From: Octopus vulgaris
Lineage: Eukaryota
Assembly (NCBI GenBank): GCA_951406725.2
Contig: OX597822.1
Location: 29,574,001-29,638,000 of the forward strand
Direction of reading: 5' to 3'
DNA length: 64,000 nucleotides
Position numbers and translations under genes: made by a program
Shown: piece after piece, positions 3,914 to 57,208 of the stretch
Layout of the letters: each line of letters begins with the position of its first letter
Numbering within the stretch: position 1 is the stretch's first letter
The notes under the pieces: generated by a model
The model's database searches: none
The model's input: only the letters and a program-made list of their open reading frames with translations
What the model was told of the DNA's origin: nothing

Positions 3914-3957
3914 ACGCCTGAAGAAGGCTGGAGGGTATATCAACCGAAACGTTGTGT
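3914..3957 (+). ncRNA. Minimal type I hammerhead ribozyme motif
   Basis: acgc CTGAAGA a ggctg..caacc GAAAC GTT gtgt; the inverted copy (about 3136-3172, minus) has perfect stem II GGCTG/CAGCC. Confidence 0.7.
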
Positions 3958-4493
3958 TAACAACAAACAAGATGAGCACAAATATCCGTCAAATGTAAAT
4001 AATGTAATTTATATATATTCAACGGGGGTATGACTCACTATGCATCACATGTATGGAACTAGTCTATCTACAAGTGGTATGGGTACATTTCATTTTAAGG
4101 TTACTTCCTATGTTTATTTTAATTCTCACAATTCATGGAGTGTTTATTTAAATAAACCCTCCTTGAATAATATAAACTAAAAATATATATAATAACCTAA
4201 ACTATCAACAAATAAGACCAATACATCTAAATAAAAAAAAATTCTCACAACTAAATAGTACAAGTTAAATAAATATATTGATTTGTATTCTTTCTAATAT
4301 GTAATATTTCAATTTCTATTCCTTTCTCAAATGAGTAGAAAAAGGAGTGGGTAGTCAGCCTTTCTAAAACCGAACAAATTAAGGGAAATGGCAGTATGAC
4401 CCAGTACCTCAAAACCACAATTAGCCATTGTCCAACTTTCCTTTTTCTTATATATATATATATATATATATATATATATATATGTATATATAT

Positions 4494-4773
4494 TAGAAGG
4501 TTTGGCGGTGATGTACAGGTATTAGAAGAAATAAGTCAATCAGAAATCTGGATGGTTTTATATTTACAGATTTTTATTAATATGTCACATGTTTTTATAA
4601 ATCATATATTAGCGCTTGCATCTACTCTAGATTCAAATCTCCAGATTTGAATCTGGTGATTCTACTAGAGTAGATGCAAGCGCTAATATATGATTTATAA
4701 AAACATGTGACATATTAAAAAATCTGTAAATATAAAACCATCCAGATTTCTGATTGCCTTATTTCTTCTAATA
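4494..4773. repeat. Fold-back element between (TA)n tracts
   Basis: Inverted arms about 4520-4630 / 4665-4773, small internal hairpin AGATTCAAATCT-CC-AGATTTGAATCT; related copy at 29078-29263. Confidence 0.85.
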
Positions 4774-4881
4774 TATATATATATATATATATATATATAT
4801 ATATATATATAATGATTCAAAACGTGTCTGCGTGTGTATCATTGGCGATTTTTCCCTTCTTTGCGTCTTTCATTTTCCTAT

Positions 4882-4916
4882 GTTTCTGATGAAGAGCTCC
4901 GCTCGAAACGTTAAAC
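4882..4916 (+). ncRNA. Minimal type I hammerhead motif in a ~210-bp (TA)n-flanked element (4812-5020)
   Basis: gttt CTGATGA a GAGC tcc GCTC GAAAC GTT aaac; same family on the minus strand at 22027-22238. Confidence 0.8.
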
Positions 4917-5474
4917 CCTCCTTCTTTCCTTCTTACCAGAGCGTCCTATAATACTATACTTGTTCCACGTCCTCGCTTTGTTGTGTTTTCTCTTTGTGTT
5001 TTCGTGTTTGGATTAACTTTATATATATATATATATATATATATATATATATATATATATATATATATATGTATGTATGTATTCAAGTGTGTGTGTGCGT
5101 GTATATATATGCGATCATTTCGGCGTCTGACATGTGGCACCCAGTTGCACCTGTACAGGTAATGTCGATTTGATTGAGGAATGAGCTTATGTCTACACAA
5201 ACACCTGATGACTATAAACAAATCGTCTCTGTGGTTGTTCGGTAAGAAATTGTCGAACTCTCATACGTCGTCTAACGACGGGAAAGGAAAGTCTATTATA
5301 TATATATATATATATATATATATATATATATATATATATATATATATATATATATATATATATATATATATATATATATATATATATATATATATATATA
5401 TATATATATATATATATATATATATATATATATATATATATATATATATATATATATATATATATATATATATA

Positions 5475-6369
5475 TGAGGTGGTACCCAAAAGAAACCGGT
5501 ATTTTGCAATATTATTTGATTCATTTAGCTTTATATGTTTACACTTTTATCGCCTTCAAAGTATTCTCCATTTGGAGCAATGCATCGGTCCACTTTTCGA
5601 AGTAGTTCTGGAACTCTTGCGAAGTGATGCCCTTTATCGTCTCCGTCATTTTTTTCTTCACCTCTTCAAATCTGCAAATTCCGTAGCACCAGCTTTCGTC
5701 AACAGTGATAATCTTCGGAAAAAGGTCCGGATCAACTTTCTGCTGTTCTTTGTCTTTCAGTTCACGACACGCATTTAGTCGTGCCTGCTTTTAATTTTTC
5801 GTGAGCAAGCGAGGCACAAATTTTGTTGCAATTTTCATTTGTAACTCCTCGCTCAAAATACATTGGCAGGAGCTCCAAGACACACCAACCACATCAACAA
5901 GTTCGTCAATTGTTCGTCGACGGTCCTCCAAGATCAGTTCATGAATTTTCATGATGTTTACATTCGTTTGGGAGGTAGACAGTTGTCCTGAACGAGGTTG
6001 GTCTTCAAACGATAAGTGACCCTTTCTAAACCATGGAAGTCACTCATCTACTTGTGTTTTGCGCATGGCATCGTCATTATAAGTTGTTTGAAGCAGGACA
6101 ACTGTTTTGGCTGTCGTTTTCTCCAGAATAAAACAGAATTTCACAGAAACATGATGTCTCTTCGTTTCAGCCATCGCAAAAATCGATGAACAGAGGAGAA
6201 GCACTGCAAAACAAAGATACACGACATGACAATACGAATTCACCCGACGATGCCAGTCAGCAGACTGATGCCTGAGGGTTGCATCAAGTGGCTCCTAGCG
6301 GCTGTAGCCTGAGCTAAAACGGGTTTGTCCCACAGAAAACATTTCCGGTTACTTTTGGGTACTTCCTTC
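5475..6369 (-). mobile_element. Internally deleted mariner (Tc1/mariner) transposon
   Basis: TIRs GAGGTGGTACCCAAAAGAAACCGG / CCGGTTACTTTTGGGTACTTCCTTC with flanking TA; minus-strand VKFCFILEKTTAKTV...EDQPRSG...EDRRRTIDEL...KFVPRLLT mariner N-terminal motifs with stops. Confidence 0.85.
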
Positions 6370-6390
6370 TATATGTATATATATATATAT

Positions 6391-6682
6391 AACTAATGTA
6401 GGATAAAATTTTTATCAATGGCCAGCATATCAAAAAATACCTTTAAAGTTTAAATTTATAAATACTTTACAAAATAAGGGCAAAAGAAAAATTCTAATGC
6501 TAAATATGCCGAAAAAAAGACAAAATTGTCAATAACCATTATAATTTATGCGTCTCGAAACAAACCCAAATTTCTATCGGTTTGTTTCGAGACGCATAAA
6601 TTATAATGGTTATTGACAATTTTGTCTATTTTTCGGCATATTTGGCATTAGAATTTTTCTTTTGCCCTTATTTTGTAAAGTA
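6391..6682. repeat. Fold-back element between (TA)n tracts
   Basis: ~104-bp near-perfect inverted arms 6463-6566 / 6579-6682 with a 12-nt spacer and a one-sided extension. Confidence 0.85.
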
Positions 6683-54568: not shown

Positions 54569-54641
54569 ATAATAATAATAATAATAATAATAATAATAAT
54601 AATAATAATAATAATAATAATAATAATGATGATGATGATGA

Positions 54642-54960
54642 TTTCTTTTATTTACCTCTAGGGCAAAGGCTGAGAAGACAATACAAAGACAGACATAAAG
54701 TGTGGGGGGGTTATATATAATGGAATGATAAAATAAAACGTATACACGGTATACATTAGGAGAAGGGAAATATACGTAATATATGACGCTAAAAAAAGAG
54801 GTGGGGAAAAGGATCATAATGAGGGATCTCCCTGATTCAGGAGGATCTCTACGGATAATCAAGGAACCCCACCATCCAAGATATTACCCTGAGTATCGAT
54901 GACGAGAGTCCACTCCAAGTTCTTTCTTCCGACTCACAAGCCTACACTGAGAGTCCTTAA
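54642..54960 (-). mobile_element. Probable L1/Tx1 LINE 3' UTR
   Basis: Minus-strand end TGTCTGTCTTTGTATTGTCTTCTCAGCCTTTGCCCTAGAGGTAAATAAAGAAAT resembles the end at 25906-25955. Confidence 0.5.
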
Positions 54961-56065
54961 TGTGTTCCTTTATCATACGTGTGAGTGTTGTGAGTCAATA
55001 TCTCACCCAGAACGAAGGCGACTCACAAACTCCCGTTGAATTTATACACCGATCCAAAGCCTGAAATGTTTATATAAAATAAACGGAATATTATATATCC
55101 AAGAATATTACCAACTAAGAATTCTTTATGCTATCACTCAACCTGCTTCAAATATCGGGCAAGTGACCCTCAGATCACAGTCTATCACTTTTTCTTTTTT
55201 TAAAGGGAAGTATACATTGCTTATATAATAGTAGATGTATGTGTGTATGTATATATATATATATATATATATATATATATATATATATATATATATATAT
55301 ATATATATATATATATATATATATATATATATTGGGTCTGCTAGCTTCTCAACAGTTTCTCAACTAGCTTCTCTGCAAGTTTCTCAACAGTTACGATGGG
55401 ATTTTGTTCCACTAGAGTTTACAGGACGTCCTCGACGAGCTCTACAGATCATCCAGGACGAAGCTCGTCTTGTAGGCTGTCGTTTCCGACTCGGAATTTC
55501 TGGAACCGCCGTTGACACGGGCTTATGGTTATTGTCCGATCCCCATATCCTGCATTAATATTCCTTTCACTTTCCGTTGCGTTGTTGCCTTAATTGAACT
55601 CAAAGCAAAATATGCCGAATATGCTTCTTTGTCACTTCCATTATAGCTTTGAAAAAATAACTCTTAAAATCGAACTGCACTCTTCAAAACTTGCACTAAG
55701 AATAAGGACAAAGTAAAATTACCTCCCGCTTTTATAGCAAGTTGATACAAGTAGTTTATCCTGTCCCCCTCCGACATTTAGTTCATGCAATTGAAAAAAC
55801 AGCATTATTTATGGGATGACCCAATATAAATCTGAAAATGGAGCACACTCTAAGTTACAGAGCAGTATATAATATAAATAAAGTTAGATAAGGCGAGTTT
55901 ATGGGATTACTCTGGATTTACGACGTATCACCAGATCCCAAAACCTGTTGTCATAGGACCTCTCTATCGAGTGGCTTCTCTAGGATATGGAGAAGGAAAG
56001 GACCTCGCTACTCAATGTCAACAACAGGGGATTGTCTCTTTTGGCTATCGATCGCGAGAGACCCT

Positions 56066-56220
56066 GTTATCCCATGGGTTCCAACAGACCAGTTGGAAAT
56101 TCCTGAAATGCAAGCACGGTCCGAAGACCTTCGTTCTGGAGGTAAGGATGTTCCTTGGTCTTCGGACCGTGCTTGCATTTCGGGAAACCCTTGCTGGCCT
56201 ATTGGAACCCAAAGGATTAT
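56066..56220. other. Long GC-balanced hairpin
   Basis: 30-bp core arms 56100-56129 / 56157-56186 (one G-U) plus outer arms GGGTTCCAACAGACCAG / CTGGCCTATTGGAACCC. Confidence 0.8.
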
Positions 56221-56354
56221 ACTAAGTTGTACTTCCCTCACATCCTCATGTTTATTCTTACTCCTAGCCCTCTTCTGCCCTTTTAAAAAAGATAAACACA
56301 CTGTACCTATTGTTAACTGTTTCTTATATGTATTAGCCCTCCCAACCACTTAGA

Positions 56355-56478
56355 CCCTCTGAAGAAGCCTACAAGCACATTCATCATCCAAACTTTATCT
56401 GCCCATCCCTACAGAATACTGAAGAGATGGAGATGGCATGGAGAATTTCGTTGCCTCTTGGCAGAAACGGCCGCAAGG
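56355..56478 (+). ncRNA. Degenerate hammerhead with ~95-nt stem II insertion
   Basis: CCT CTGAAGA a GCC...GGC a GAAAC GGCC GCA AGG; the triplet GCA is probably a mutated GUA. Confidence 0.45.
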
Positions 56479-56974
56479 AACTATCACTTACTGACAATCT
56501 GATCTTTTGCTCTTTTCTGTAATATTAGTACATGTGCATGTAATACATGGTTAATACATATGTATGTAATACATGGTTAATACATGTGTATGTATTCATC
56601 TAATACATTCTAATACATTGGAATGAATAGACATACTAAAATGTCTACCGACTGATGTATGTAGTTTTTATATCCTCTTCATTTTCTTATTTGTCGTTTA
56701 TCTATCTATCGATCTATCTATCTATCTAGCTATATATATATATATATATATATATATATATATATATATATATATATATATATATATATATATATAGCTA
56801 GCTAGCTAGATAGATAGATAGATAAACGACAAATAAGAATATATATATATATATATATATATATATATCGTCTTCTAAATGTTTCACGTTCTTGTCCCAG
56901 TTTATATTTTTTTACATTTACATATATATATATGTATATATATATATATATATATATATATATATGTGTATATA

Positions 56975-57208
56975 CCGGAGTAAACACATAAATGTGAAAC
57001 AAGGTGGAAAAAAGAGTACTCAAATACCAGTGGTAGAGTAATATGCTTTATTTTAAGCAGCAGAAAATTCAACAAAATCTGTTACTCTGAGTTTCTCGTT
57101 GCCGTTCATCAGACAGTTTTTGCCATTCTAGCAAAAACTGTCTGATGAACGGCAACGAGAAACTCAGAGTAACAGATTTTGTTGAATTTTCTGCTGCTTA
57201 AAATAAAG
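56975..57208 (-). mobile_element. Hammerhead-bearing fold-back mini-element in (TA)n
   Basis: 78-bp perfect arms 57046-57123 / 57131-57208; both contain a complete hammerhead (AAAACTGT CTGATGA...GAAAC TCAGA GTA ACAGATTTT). Confidence 0.9.

What the first reader, a model, noticed from the sequence alone, without database searches (positions are those of the whole stretch)
3914..57180. About a dozen loci with type I hammerhead motifs, from at least seven sequence families, in 64 kb
Seen: cores at 3914, 4882, 17537, 18169(-), 20525(-), 22131(-), 35573, 40299, 42341, 44884(-), 49539, 56355 and 57134. Stem III is either absent (GAAAC-GUH) or self-complementary (ACGATCGT, ACACGTGT, ACTC-A-GAGT, ACGGCCG[T]). 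Known: such minimal PLE hammerheads are thought to need dimerisation. Inference: the repeated palindromic stem III across unrelated families indicates selection for dimeric or trans cleavage, and the genome may hold a very large ribozyme load.
Basis: partly seen in the sequence, partly recalled or inferred. Interest (0 to 1): 0.72.

Follow-up and report, generated by a model that had tools for sequence, protein, structure and literature searches.

The report
Penelope retrotransposon hammerheads, dimer-type, very abundant
The motifs are real hammerhead-shaped RNA sequences, most of them at the tail ends of Penelope-like jumping genes, of a known kind predicted to cut themselves only as pairs; this genome likely holds around a hundred thousand of them, and one very common family keeps an unusual core letter whose effect on cutting is untested.

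Summary
Real, and mostly known. All 13 loci are hammerhead-family sequences from nine repeat families; 9 of 13 pass a widened type I descriptor (11 motifs versus 0.26 in shuffles), 4 carry lesions. Seven families have a Penelope-like GIY-YIG or RT-GIY-YIG frame upstream (Poseidon-, Neptune- and Hydra-type motifs). A 1-Mb genome sample extrapolates to about 78,000 strict or 150,000 widened motifs. Stem III is self-complementary in 23 of 30 sampled motifs versus 4 of 38 shuffled, and covaries at positions that can pair only between two molecules (CACGTG/CGCGCG/CGTACG). The odd part: locus 17542 is not decay. A Neptune-type lineage fixed A6U (CUGUNGA; 23,295 exact matches versus 22 control) and kept 30 of 30 structural positions over seven subfamilies, while positions 7 and 17 and the flanks changed. 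I found no paper on this, but one key paper was unavailable, and this scan already noted A6U in this genome and in others. Cutting is untested.

The parts
3085..3172 (-). Inverted, 5'-truncated copy of the family A end; breaks off at core position U4
   Evidence: 93% identical to 3919-4006; sequence
3152..3697 (+). C-terminal part of a Penelope/Poseidon-type frame (GIY-YIG region), family A
   Evidence: 82% identical to the RT+EN frame of L149; 150 scored matches of 4899 candidates genome-wide
3914..3957 (+). Family A minimal hammerhead (ACGU stem III), one mismatch in stem II
4882..4916 (+). Family B1 minimal hammerhead
   Evidence: 6976 exact matches versus 0 control
17537..17574 (+). Family B2 minimal hammerhead with lineage-wide A6U core (CUGUNGA), Neptune-type parent
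18168..18222 (-). Family C hammerhead, 7-bp stem I, 8-bp stem II, ACGAUCGU palindrome
   Evidence: 58 exact matches versus 0
20425..20642 (.). Family F head-to-head pair (cores 20563-, 20576+) between TA repeats; one arm short-ended, one long-ended
22131..22165 (-). Family B1 minimal hammerhead
35487..35715 (.). Family F head-to-head pair (cores 35545-, damaged, and 35579+)
39708..40075 (+). Frameshifted Hydra-type GIY-YIG region, parent of family G
40294..40379 (+). Family G hammerhead, long stem II, ACAUGUGU wobble palindrome, G.G mismatch in stem I
42341..42423 (+). Family H hammerhead, long stem II, ACACGUGU palindrome
   Evidence: 742 matches of a partial pattern versus 1
44885..44926 (-). 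Family I hammerhead remnant with core CUGAUGC, inside an inverted repeat between TA runs; parent frame not found
49438..49680 (.). Family F head-to-head pair (cores 49503-, 49543+)
56355..56478 (+). Family J hammerhead remnant, long stem II, U16.1 changed to C; parent frame not found
56976..57209 (.). Family F head-to-head pair (cores 57112-, 57142+)
61012..61049 (-).

Best explanation
These are type I hammerhead motifs of nine repeat families, at least seven of them the 3' ends of Penelope-like retrotransposons, and their self-complementary stem III likely lets them fold and cut only when two copies pair. Shown: motif excess over shuffles; a GIY-YIG or RT-GIY-YIG frame upstream of families A, B1, B2, C, F, G, H; compensatory changes in stems I, II and III; two fixed 3' ends per F element; insertion in TA repeats. 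Inferred: the pairing partner is mainly the second copy in a tandem or partial-tandem transcript of an active element (as in L271, two same-strand motifs 1.55 kb apart), cutting is slow and probably helped by the element's protein, and the uncut RNA is the template, so that most of the roughly 10^5 genomic motifs are short, 5'-truncated passengers that decay after insertion. Head-to-head pairs would arise when both nicked target strands prime cDNA, one at each start site. In the B2 lineage the fold and the cleavable NUH site stayed under selection after A6 became U, which most likely lowers but does not abolish cutting.
For: Window: 6 versus 0.05, 11 versus 0.26. Evenly spaced 100 x 10 kb sample: 29 versus 1.08 strict, 57 versus 3.4 widened. 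Genome-wide exact patterns versus reversed controls: 24,491/14, 23,295/22, 9331/0, 6976/0. Parents. Self-complementary segment when >=4 nt: 23 of 30 hits versus 4 of 38 shuffled hits, P=3.5e-8; 15 of 20 sequence groups (grouped by hand), P=2e-11. Family H: CACGTG, CGCGCG, CGTACG with the segment left free in the pattern; centre pair CG 43, TA 39, TG 12, CA 4, other 2 of 100 listed (counted by hand); these positions cannot pair within one hairpin. Stem covariation: H stem I A-U 12/G-C 5 of 19; G stem II A-U 5/G-C 3 of 8; B stem I G-C 39/C-G 39 of 97. F 3' ends: 22 at +43 and 33 at +107 to +110 of 58; one short and one long end in 12 of 13 pairs printed. B2: 0 of 30 structural columns differ among seven subfamily majorities versus 20 of 68 3'-flank columns, P=3e-4, while N7 and H17 vary; G17 only 251 of 23,546. 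Literature: PMC4209133, PMC11167929, PMC8557442, PMC6765202.
Against: No cleavage or RNA-end data: only contigs were available. No parent frame found for families I and J; B1 rests on 1 of 30 loci; clade names rest on motifs, not on a tree. Covariation counts are copies, not events: family H shows two events in stem III; C and A show no double change in the stems tabulated (which stopped before A's stem II). Some lineages fix mismatches: A.C in H stem II (10 of 19), unpaired base of F stem II (23 of 34). Family F can also form a 3-bp monomer stem III with a 3-nt loop. Minimum-energy folds of 5 of the 7 single motifs and several dimers do not give the hammerhead shape. CG to TA can also come from two CpG transitions. 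Mutations in the CUGA turn gave low activity in a monomeric type III ribozyme (PMC9901934, passages), so B2 may not cut at all.
Confidence: 0.82

Rival explanations
1. In the B2 (A6U) lineage, and perhaps others, the motif no longer cuts; its shape or the DNA under it is kept as a binding site for the element's protein or as part of the promoter.
For: CUGA-turn mutants are weak in vitro (PMC9901934, passages; A6C under 0.1 per min in PMC3088659, part 3). Ribozyme-dead mutants did not reduce insertion in vitro (PMC11167929, part 2). Loop II is also invariant across subfamilies (0 of 4). Only 1 of 100 tail-recruited copies begins at the cut site.
Against: Exactly the two positions that hammerheads leave free (N7, H17) are the ones that changed; H17 took A, U and C but no G subfamily arose (1.1% G, spread over all subfamilies), though this rests on about three master changes.
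Confidence: 0.4
2. The many dispersed copies pair in trans between unrelated transcripts and cut host RNAs, so the load is a host-level regulatory network.
For: Tens of thousands of near-identical copies per family; 6-nt palindromes give self-duplexes near -10 kcal/mol.
Against: ACGU self-duplex is only -1.7 kcal/mol; copies show ordinary decay, including CpG loss in the palindrome (CA 6, TG 4 of 97); head-to-head pairs fold into -85 to -140 kcal/mol hairpins; published minimal motifs cut weakly even as cis dimers (PMC4209133, part 2).
Confidence: 0.07
3. The motifs act as monomers with a 1-3-bp stem III, and the palindromes are a by-product or DNA-level sites (for example E-box-like words).
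For: Family F can close a 3-bp stem with a 3-nt loop; CACGTG is a common DNA-binding word (recalled).
Against: At least ten different palindromes occur in the same slot, wobble versions that suit RNA occur in several families, and the centre pair covaries.
Confidence: 0.08

Closest known systems
Minimal and palindromic-helix-III hammerheads in pLTRs of metazoan Penelope-like elements (Cervera and de la Pena 2014, PMC4209133; main text parts 1-3 of 4 and supplement file 2 part 2 of 3 read)
   Same: Type I, extra base between A9 and G10.1, G10.1-C11.1, palindromic 15.2-16.2 and loop 3, many families per genome, mostly solo copies, opposite-strand pairs 100-700 bp apart, predicted dimers
   Different: Load here is larger (about 78,000-150,000 by my descriptors versus about 4,000 in coelacanth and 9,000 in Xenopus by theirs); no row of the alignment part I read has U at position 6; U4C is the majority form in B1; family F has an unpaired base on both sides of a 2-bp stem II
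Small hammerhead variants of Penelope-like retrotransposons that cleave as dimers (Lunse, Weinberg, Breaker 2017; not held, seen only as a reference and as summarised in PMC6765202, section 11 passages)
   Same: Short palindromic stem III, dimer cleavage
   Different: Cannot say: the paper and its alignments could not be read, and may already contain cephalopod or A6U examples
PAc Poseidon element of the green anole (Frangieh et al. 2024, PMC11167929; parts 1-2 of 4 read)
   Same: Hammerhead in the pLTR, two fixed 3' ends (tail), AT-rich targets, copies that contain the uncut motif
   Different: Tail of family F is about 65-70 nt, not 30-40; protein help and start sites were not tested here
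Penelope/Poseidon, Neptune and Hydra clades (Craig et al. 2021, PMC8557442; passages, section 11 and a supplement search)
   Same: DKG motif (A), CX2-5CxxC linker (B2), CxCX5C linker and C-terminal CxxC/CxH (C, F, G, H), inverted 5'-truncated copies, TA targeting
   Different: That paper names only Naiad families for octopuses in the rows I saw (2 of 4 occurrences); my assignments are by motif only
Natural core variants A6C (phage Bcep176) and U4C (viroid) (PMC3088659, passages and part 3; PMC7151607, part 1 of 4)
   Same: Single change in the CUGA turn with the rest of the fold kept
   Different: Those are rare single examples, A6C is weak in Mg2+ and better in Mn2+; here A6U marks tens of thousands of copies over a succession of subfamilies
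Metazoan non-LTR retrozymes (bioRxiv 10.64898/2026.07.22.740005, part 1 of 5 read)
   Same: Type I hammerheads related to Penelope pLTRs
   Different: Retrozymes are tandem non-coding units; none of these loci lies in a tandem array and seven families have coding parents

Membership tests
Type I hammerhead ribozyme | Core CUGANGA...GAAA...UH | tested here: met
   Met with U4 or C4 in families A, B1, C, F, G, H
Type I hammerhead ribozyme | A at core position 6 (family B2) | tested here: not met
   U6 in 93, C6 in 5, A6 in 0, no core in 2 of 100 tail-recruited copies (by hand); 95 of 100 listed. B2 is a variant, not a consensus member
Type I hammerhead ribozyme | Stems I and II pair and covary | tested here: met
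   Double changes in H, G and B; none seen in C or in A stem I; F base pair 10.1-11.1 unpaired in 23 of 34
Type I hammerhead ribozyme | Self-cleavage at NUH | not testable with these tools
   No assay; only contigs available
Minimal/dimeric PLE hammerhead | Palindromic 15.1-16.1 segment | tested here: met
   23 of 30 versus 4 of 38; covariation
Minimal/dimeric PLE hammerhead | Extra base between 9 and 10.1 with G10.1-C11.1 | tested here: met
   A, B1, B2 (G-C in 97 of 97 B copies, partly set by the pattern); absent in C, G, H, which have no extra base
Minimal/dimeric PLE hammerhead | Cleavage as a dimer | not testable with these tools
   Only duplex energies
EN+ Penelope-like element | RT followed by C-terminal GIY-YIG upstream of the motif | tested here: met
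   RT+EN for A (L149), F (L146), B2 (L271), H (L264, RT end); EN only for B1 (L266), C (L267, L268), G (window, L269). Not found for I and J
EN+ Penelope-like element | Inverted 5'-truncated copy, partial tandem, tail on one end | tested here: met
   Window 3085-3172; L271 partial tandem; F short/long ends in 12 of 13 pairs
Hydra clade (C, F, G, H) | CxCX5C linker; CxxC and CxH around conserved E and N; TA targets | tested here: met
   (F linker degenerate; C shows the linker only)
Hydra clade (C, F, G, H) | RWK and DKT motifs; placement in an RT tree | tested here: inconclusive
   N-terminal parts not recovered; no tree built
Neptune clade (B1, B2) | CX2-5CxxC linker between RT and EN | tested here: met
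   L271; Nematis shares this linker, so Neptune versus Nematis rests on recalled RT and EN wording
Non-LTR retrozyme | Tandem non-coding units each with a hammerhead | tested here: not met
   No motif inside any tandem array of the window

The most novel reading that the evidence does not exclude
CUGUNGA is a working, slowed hammerhead core: a Neptune-type lineage switched A6 to U long ago, kept every other catalytic and pairing position and a cleavable NUH site through seven successive subfamilies, and became about half of all stem-III-less motifs in this genome. If the same change recurs in other animals' Penelope-like elements, as unverified scan notes suggest, it would be a repeatedly selected way to tune down a dimeric, protein-assisted ribozyme, and standard CUGA descriptors would miss a large part of animal hammerheads.
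Probability: 0.35. Interest if true: 0.7.

Novelty: new variant of a known kind. Interest (0 to 1): 0.44.

Why it matters
The function of hammerheads in Penelope-like elements is still open (PMC8557442 and PMC11167929 say so). This genome offers natural test sets: one family whose stem III palindrome covaries at positions that can pair only between molecules, sister lineages with A6 (B1) and U6 (B2) cores under the same stems, and about 10^5 copies for strand-bias and RNA-end statistics. If U6 cuts, the hammerhead consensus widens and existing counts are too low; if it does not, it shows that the fold is kept for something other than catalysis.

Tried and rejected
Rfam scan gave only microsatellite and hairpin matches in the 150 of 271 rows shown. 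My first descriptor lacked the extra base and missed families A and B. DNA search of the genome with family F returned nothing because common words are skipped. I first read 17542 as a decayed copy; rejected. I first called the F/G parents Nematis-type from memory; the motifs in PMC8557442 section 11 fit Hydra better. MITE or chance-hairpin reading of the F palindromes: rejected, the arms are Penelope-like 3' ends with two fixed termini. Retrozyme reading: no tandem arrays. Copies starting at the cut site: none within 3 nt in 58 F, 49 B1, 41 and 16 B2 alignments (recruitment favoured copies with a full core), five of 21 A alignments start at +5 and were not resolved, 1 of 100; no conclusion drawn. 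Sequencing runs: no RNA holder on record, contigs only, so nothing on expression or ends. Pfam barely sees these frames. Paper searches for A6U or CUGUNGA with hammerhead and for octopus or cephalopod hammerheads found no report; Lunse 2017 and Nelson and Uhlenbeck 2008 are not held, file 1 of the 2014 supplement was not searched, and bioRxiv supplements are closed, so absence from print is not established.

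
Full report
OBSERVATION. The window is G000:C9:29574001-29638000 of a 2.80-Gb genome, microsatellite-rich; it is octopus-like by my recall of its repeats and by earlier scan notes, which I did not test. All 13 coordinates hold hammerhead-like sequence. A strict type I descriptor finds 6 loci versus 0.05 in shuffles (0 of 150 reach it). A widened one, without any palindrome requirement, finds 11 motifs versus 0.26, covering 9 of the 13 loci. The other four are damaged members of real families: 3918 and 40299 have one stem mismatch, 44922 has CUGAUGC and a broken palindrome, 56359 has C for U16.1 while its relative in L186 keeps the palindrome but has lost the core, and the one in L221 keeps the core. 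The loci fall into nine families; F supplies four and B1 two.

WHAT CARRIES THEM. Family A lies 220 nt behind a GIY-YIG-type frame at 3152-3697 that is 82% identical to an RT+EN frame with a DKG motif, with an inverted 5'-truncated copy on its left. Family F flanks RT+EN frames in L143-L146. G follows a frameshifted EN in the window and an intact one in L269; C follows EN in L267 and L268; an RT-end+EN frame lies between an inverted pair of H motifs in L264. These four show the CxCX5C linker, the C-terminal CxxC/CxH motifs, or both, that PMC8557442 (section 11) gives for the Hydra clade. B2 follows RT, a CX4CxxC linker and EN in L271, a partial tandem with two same-strand motifs 1.55 kb apart; B1 has such an EN upstream in 1 of 30 loci. 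No parent was found for I or J. Clade names are by motif only.

LOAD. In 100 evenly spaced 10-kb stretches the strict descriptor gives 29 hits versus 1.08 and the widened one 57 versus 3.4 (bootstrap 41-74), that is about 78,000 and about 150,000 (105,000-198,000) motifs genome-wide. Exact patterns agree as lower bounds: 24,491 stem-III-less A6 motifs versus 14 control, 23,295 U6 motifs versus 22, 9331 F versus 0, 742 H versus 1, 58 C versus 0. The window is about threefold richer than the sample.

STEM III. Among sample hits with a segment of 4 nt or more, 23 of 30 are self-complementary (wobble allowed, at most one central base) versus 4 of 38 shuffled hits; by hand-made sequence groups 15 of 20. 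The seven misses include likely chance hits and single-change copies. The words differ between families (CGATCG, CATATG, CAGCTG, CCATGG, GAGCTC, CGCG, CCGCCGG, CTCAGAG and others). In family H, with the six bases left free, CACGTG dominates and CGCGCG and CGTACG recur; in the CG..CG class the centre is CG 43, TA 39, TG 12, CA 4, other 2 of the 100 listed of 170 (by hand). Positions 2/5 and 3/4 cannot pair inside one hairpin, so this favours pairing between two molecules. It is two events, not many, and CG to TA can also be reached by CpG transitions, although the single-step forms are the rarer ones. Stems I and II show double changes in H, G and B, none in C or in A stem I, and fixed mismatches in H and F.

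MECHANISM. Shown: F copies end at two fixed sites, +43 (22 of 58) and +107 to +110 (33 of 58) from the predicted cut, followed by TA repeats; in 12 of 13 printed inverted pairs one arm has each end. This matches the tail and the two reverse-transcription starts reported for an anole element, whose ribozyme needed the protein and whose uncut RNA was the template (PMC11167929, parts 1-2). Copies here contain the whole motif, and almost none start at the cut. Inferred: active tandem elements supply the cis partner for slow dimer cutting; dispersed copies are passengers. They decay as expected, and the four head-to-head pairs fold into hairpins of 53-83 pairs at -85 to -140 kcal/mol. I found nothing that points to trans cleavage.

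THE A6U LINEAGE. Locus 17542 has CUGUCGA. All 23 B2 copies recruited by their tails in the sample have U6, as do 93 of 100 tail-recruited copies genome-wide, with no A6, and 95 of 100, where three have A6. A tree of the aligned copies (69 collected, short ones dropped) shows a ladder of subfamilies with U6 throughout, one nested A6 copy and two C6 copies. Across seven subfamily majorities (39 copies, many recruited by a core pattern) 0 of 30 core and stem columns differ versus 20 of 68 3'-flank columns, P=3e-4; N7 takes all four bases, H17 takes A or U, loop II is also fixed; the youngest group differs by 0.8%. G at position 17 is 251 of 23,546 and is spread over all subfamilies. Contigs from four coded runs labelled as four other organisms show N7 variation and no A6 at the 5% level (chosen by likeness to this copy, so biased). 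Against activity: CUGA-turn mutants were weak in a type III ribozyme (PMC9901934, passages) and natural A6C is slow in Mg2+ (PMC3088659, part 3; PMC7151607, part 1). I put a working, slowed ribozyme at 0.35, a non-cutting but conserved structure at 0.4, and leave the rest open.

PRIOR ART. PMC4209133 (parts 1-3, supplement part) already describes minimal and palindromic-helix-III motifs in Penelope pLTRs, the extra base, thousands of solo copies, opposite-strand pairs and weak dimer cutting; PMC6765202 (section 11 passages) summarises the dimer work of Lunse et al., which I could not read. Searches for A6U or CUGUNGA and for cephalopod hammerheads found no report. This scan's own notes already list A6U in this genome (e1-9897094) and in other genomes; I reached it before seeing them, and did not check the other genomes.

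VERDICT. Observation confirmed; interpretation partly supported and largely known. New variant of a known kind; interest 0.44, carried by the A6U lineage, the centre-pair covariation and the size of the load.

Noticed in passing
window 51183-51464 (-): Open frame that looks like the first exon of a claudin/PMP-22-like gene (Pfam Claudin_2, E=0.01, below cutoff). If the gene extends leftwards, minus-strand motifs would be sense in its introns.
   Followed up: partly
window 4494-4770, 6451-6694, 17693-17867, 29073-29233: Further palindromic inserts between TA repeats without a standard hammerhead; probably ends of other Penelope-like families. Earlier notes describe rewired hammerheads in Naiad ends of this genome; not checked here.
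   Followed up: no
family F, e.g. window 57113-57141 and L031, L036, L041: 5' joins cluster 1-19 nt upstream of the core (31 of 58 alignments, recruitment biased), often at a short CTAG palindrome preceded by an initiator-like word; may mark a transcription start or a fold-back point.
   Followed up: partly
families F and J (window 57142, 56359); L049, L096, L106: An A opposite A, G, C or U at the base of stem II, i.e. an unpaired base on both sides; in F this leaves a 2-bp stem with a GNRA loop.
   Followed up: partly
family B1 genome-wide: U4C (CCGACGA) is the majority core in this family of at least 6976 copies.
   Followed up: partly
window 44885-44926 (-): Core CUGAUGC; earlier notes report lineages with such a core in other genomes, so it may be a subfamily trait rather than decay. 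One relative in L114 has A9.
   Followed up: partly
window 40414-41003 and 41595-42185: 594-bp, 96.6% inverted repeat of AT-rich DNA just upstream of the family H motif, with another repeat inserted at its centre.
   Followed up: no
window 59015-60306: Seven tandem copies of a 184-bp SINE-like unit, 98% alike, without a hammerhead core.
   Followed up: no
window 62112-63809 (-) and 23696-24971 (-): Broken LINE-type reverse transcriptase pieces (RVT_1, E=1e-6) and hAT-like transposase pieces.
   Followed up: no
L078 and L103: Two B1-like copies with G at position 17 and a changed stem I; possibly a non-cleavable subfamily.
   Followed up: no
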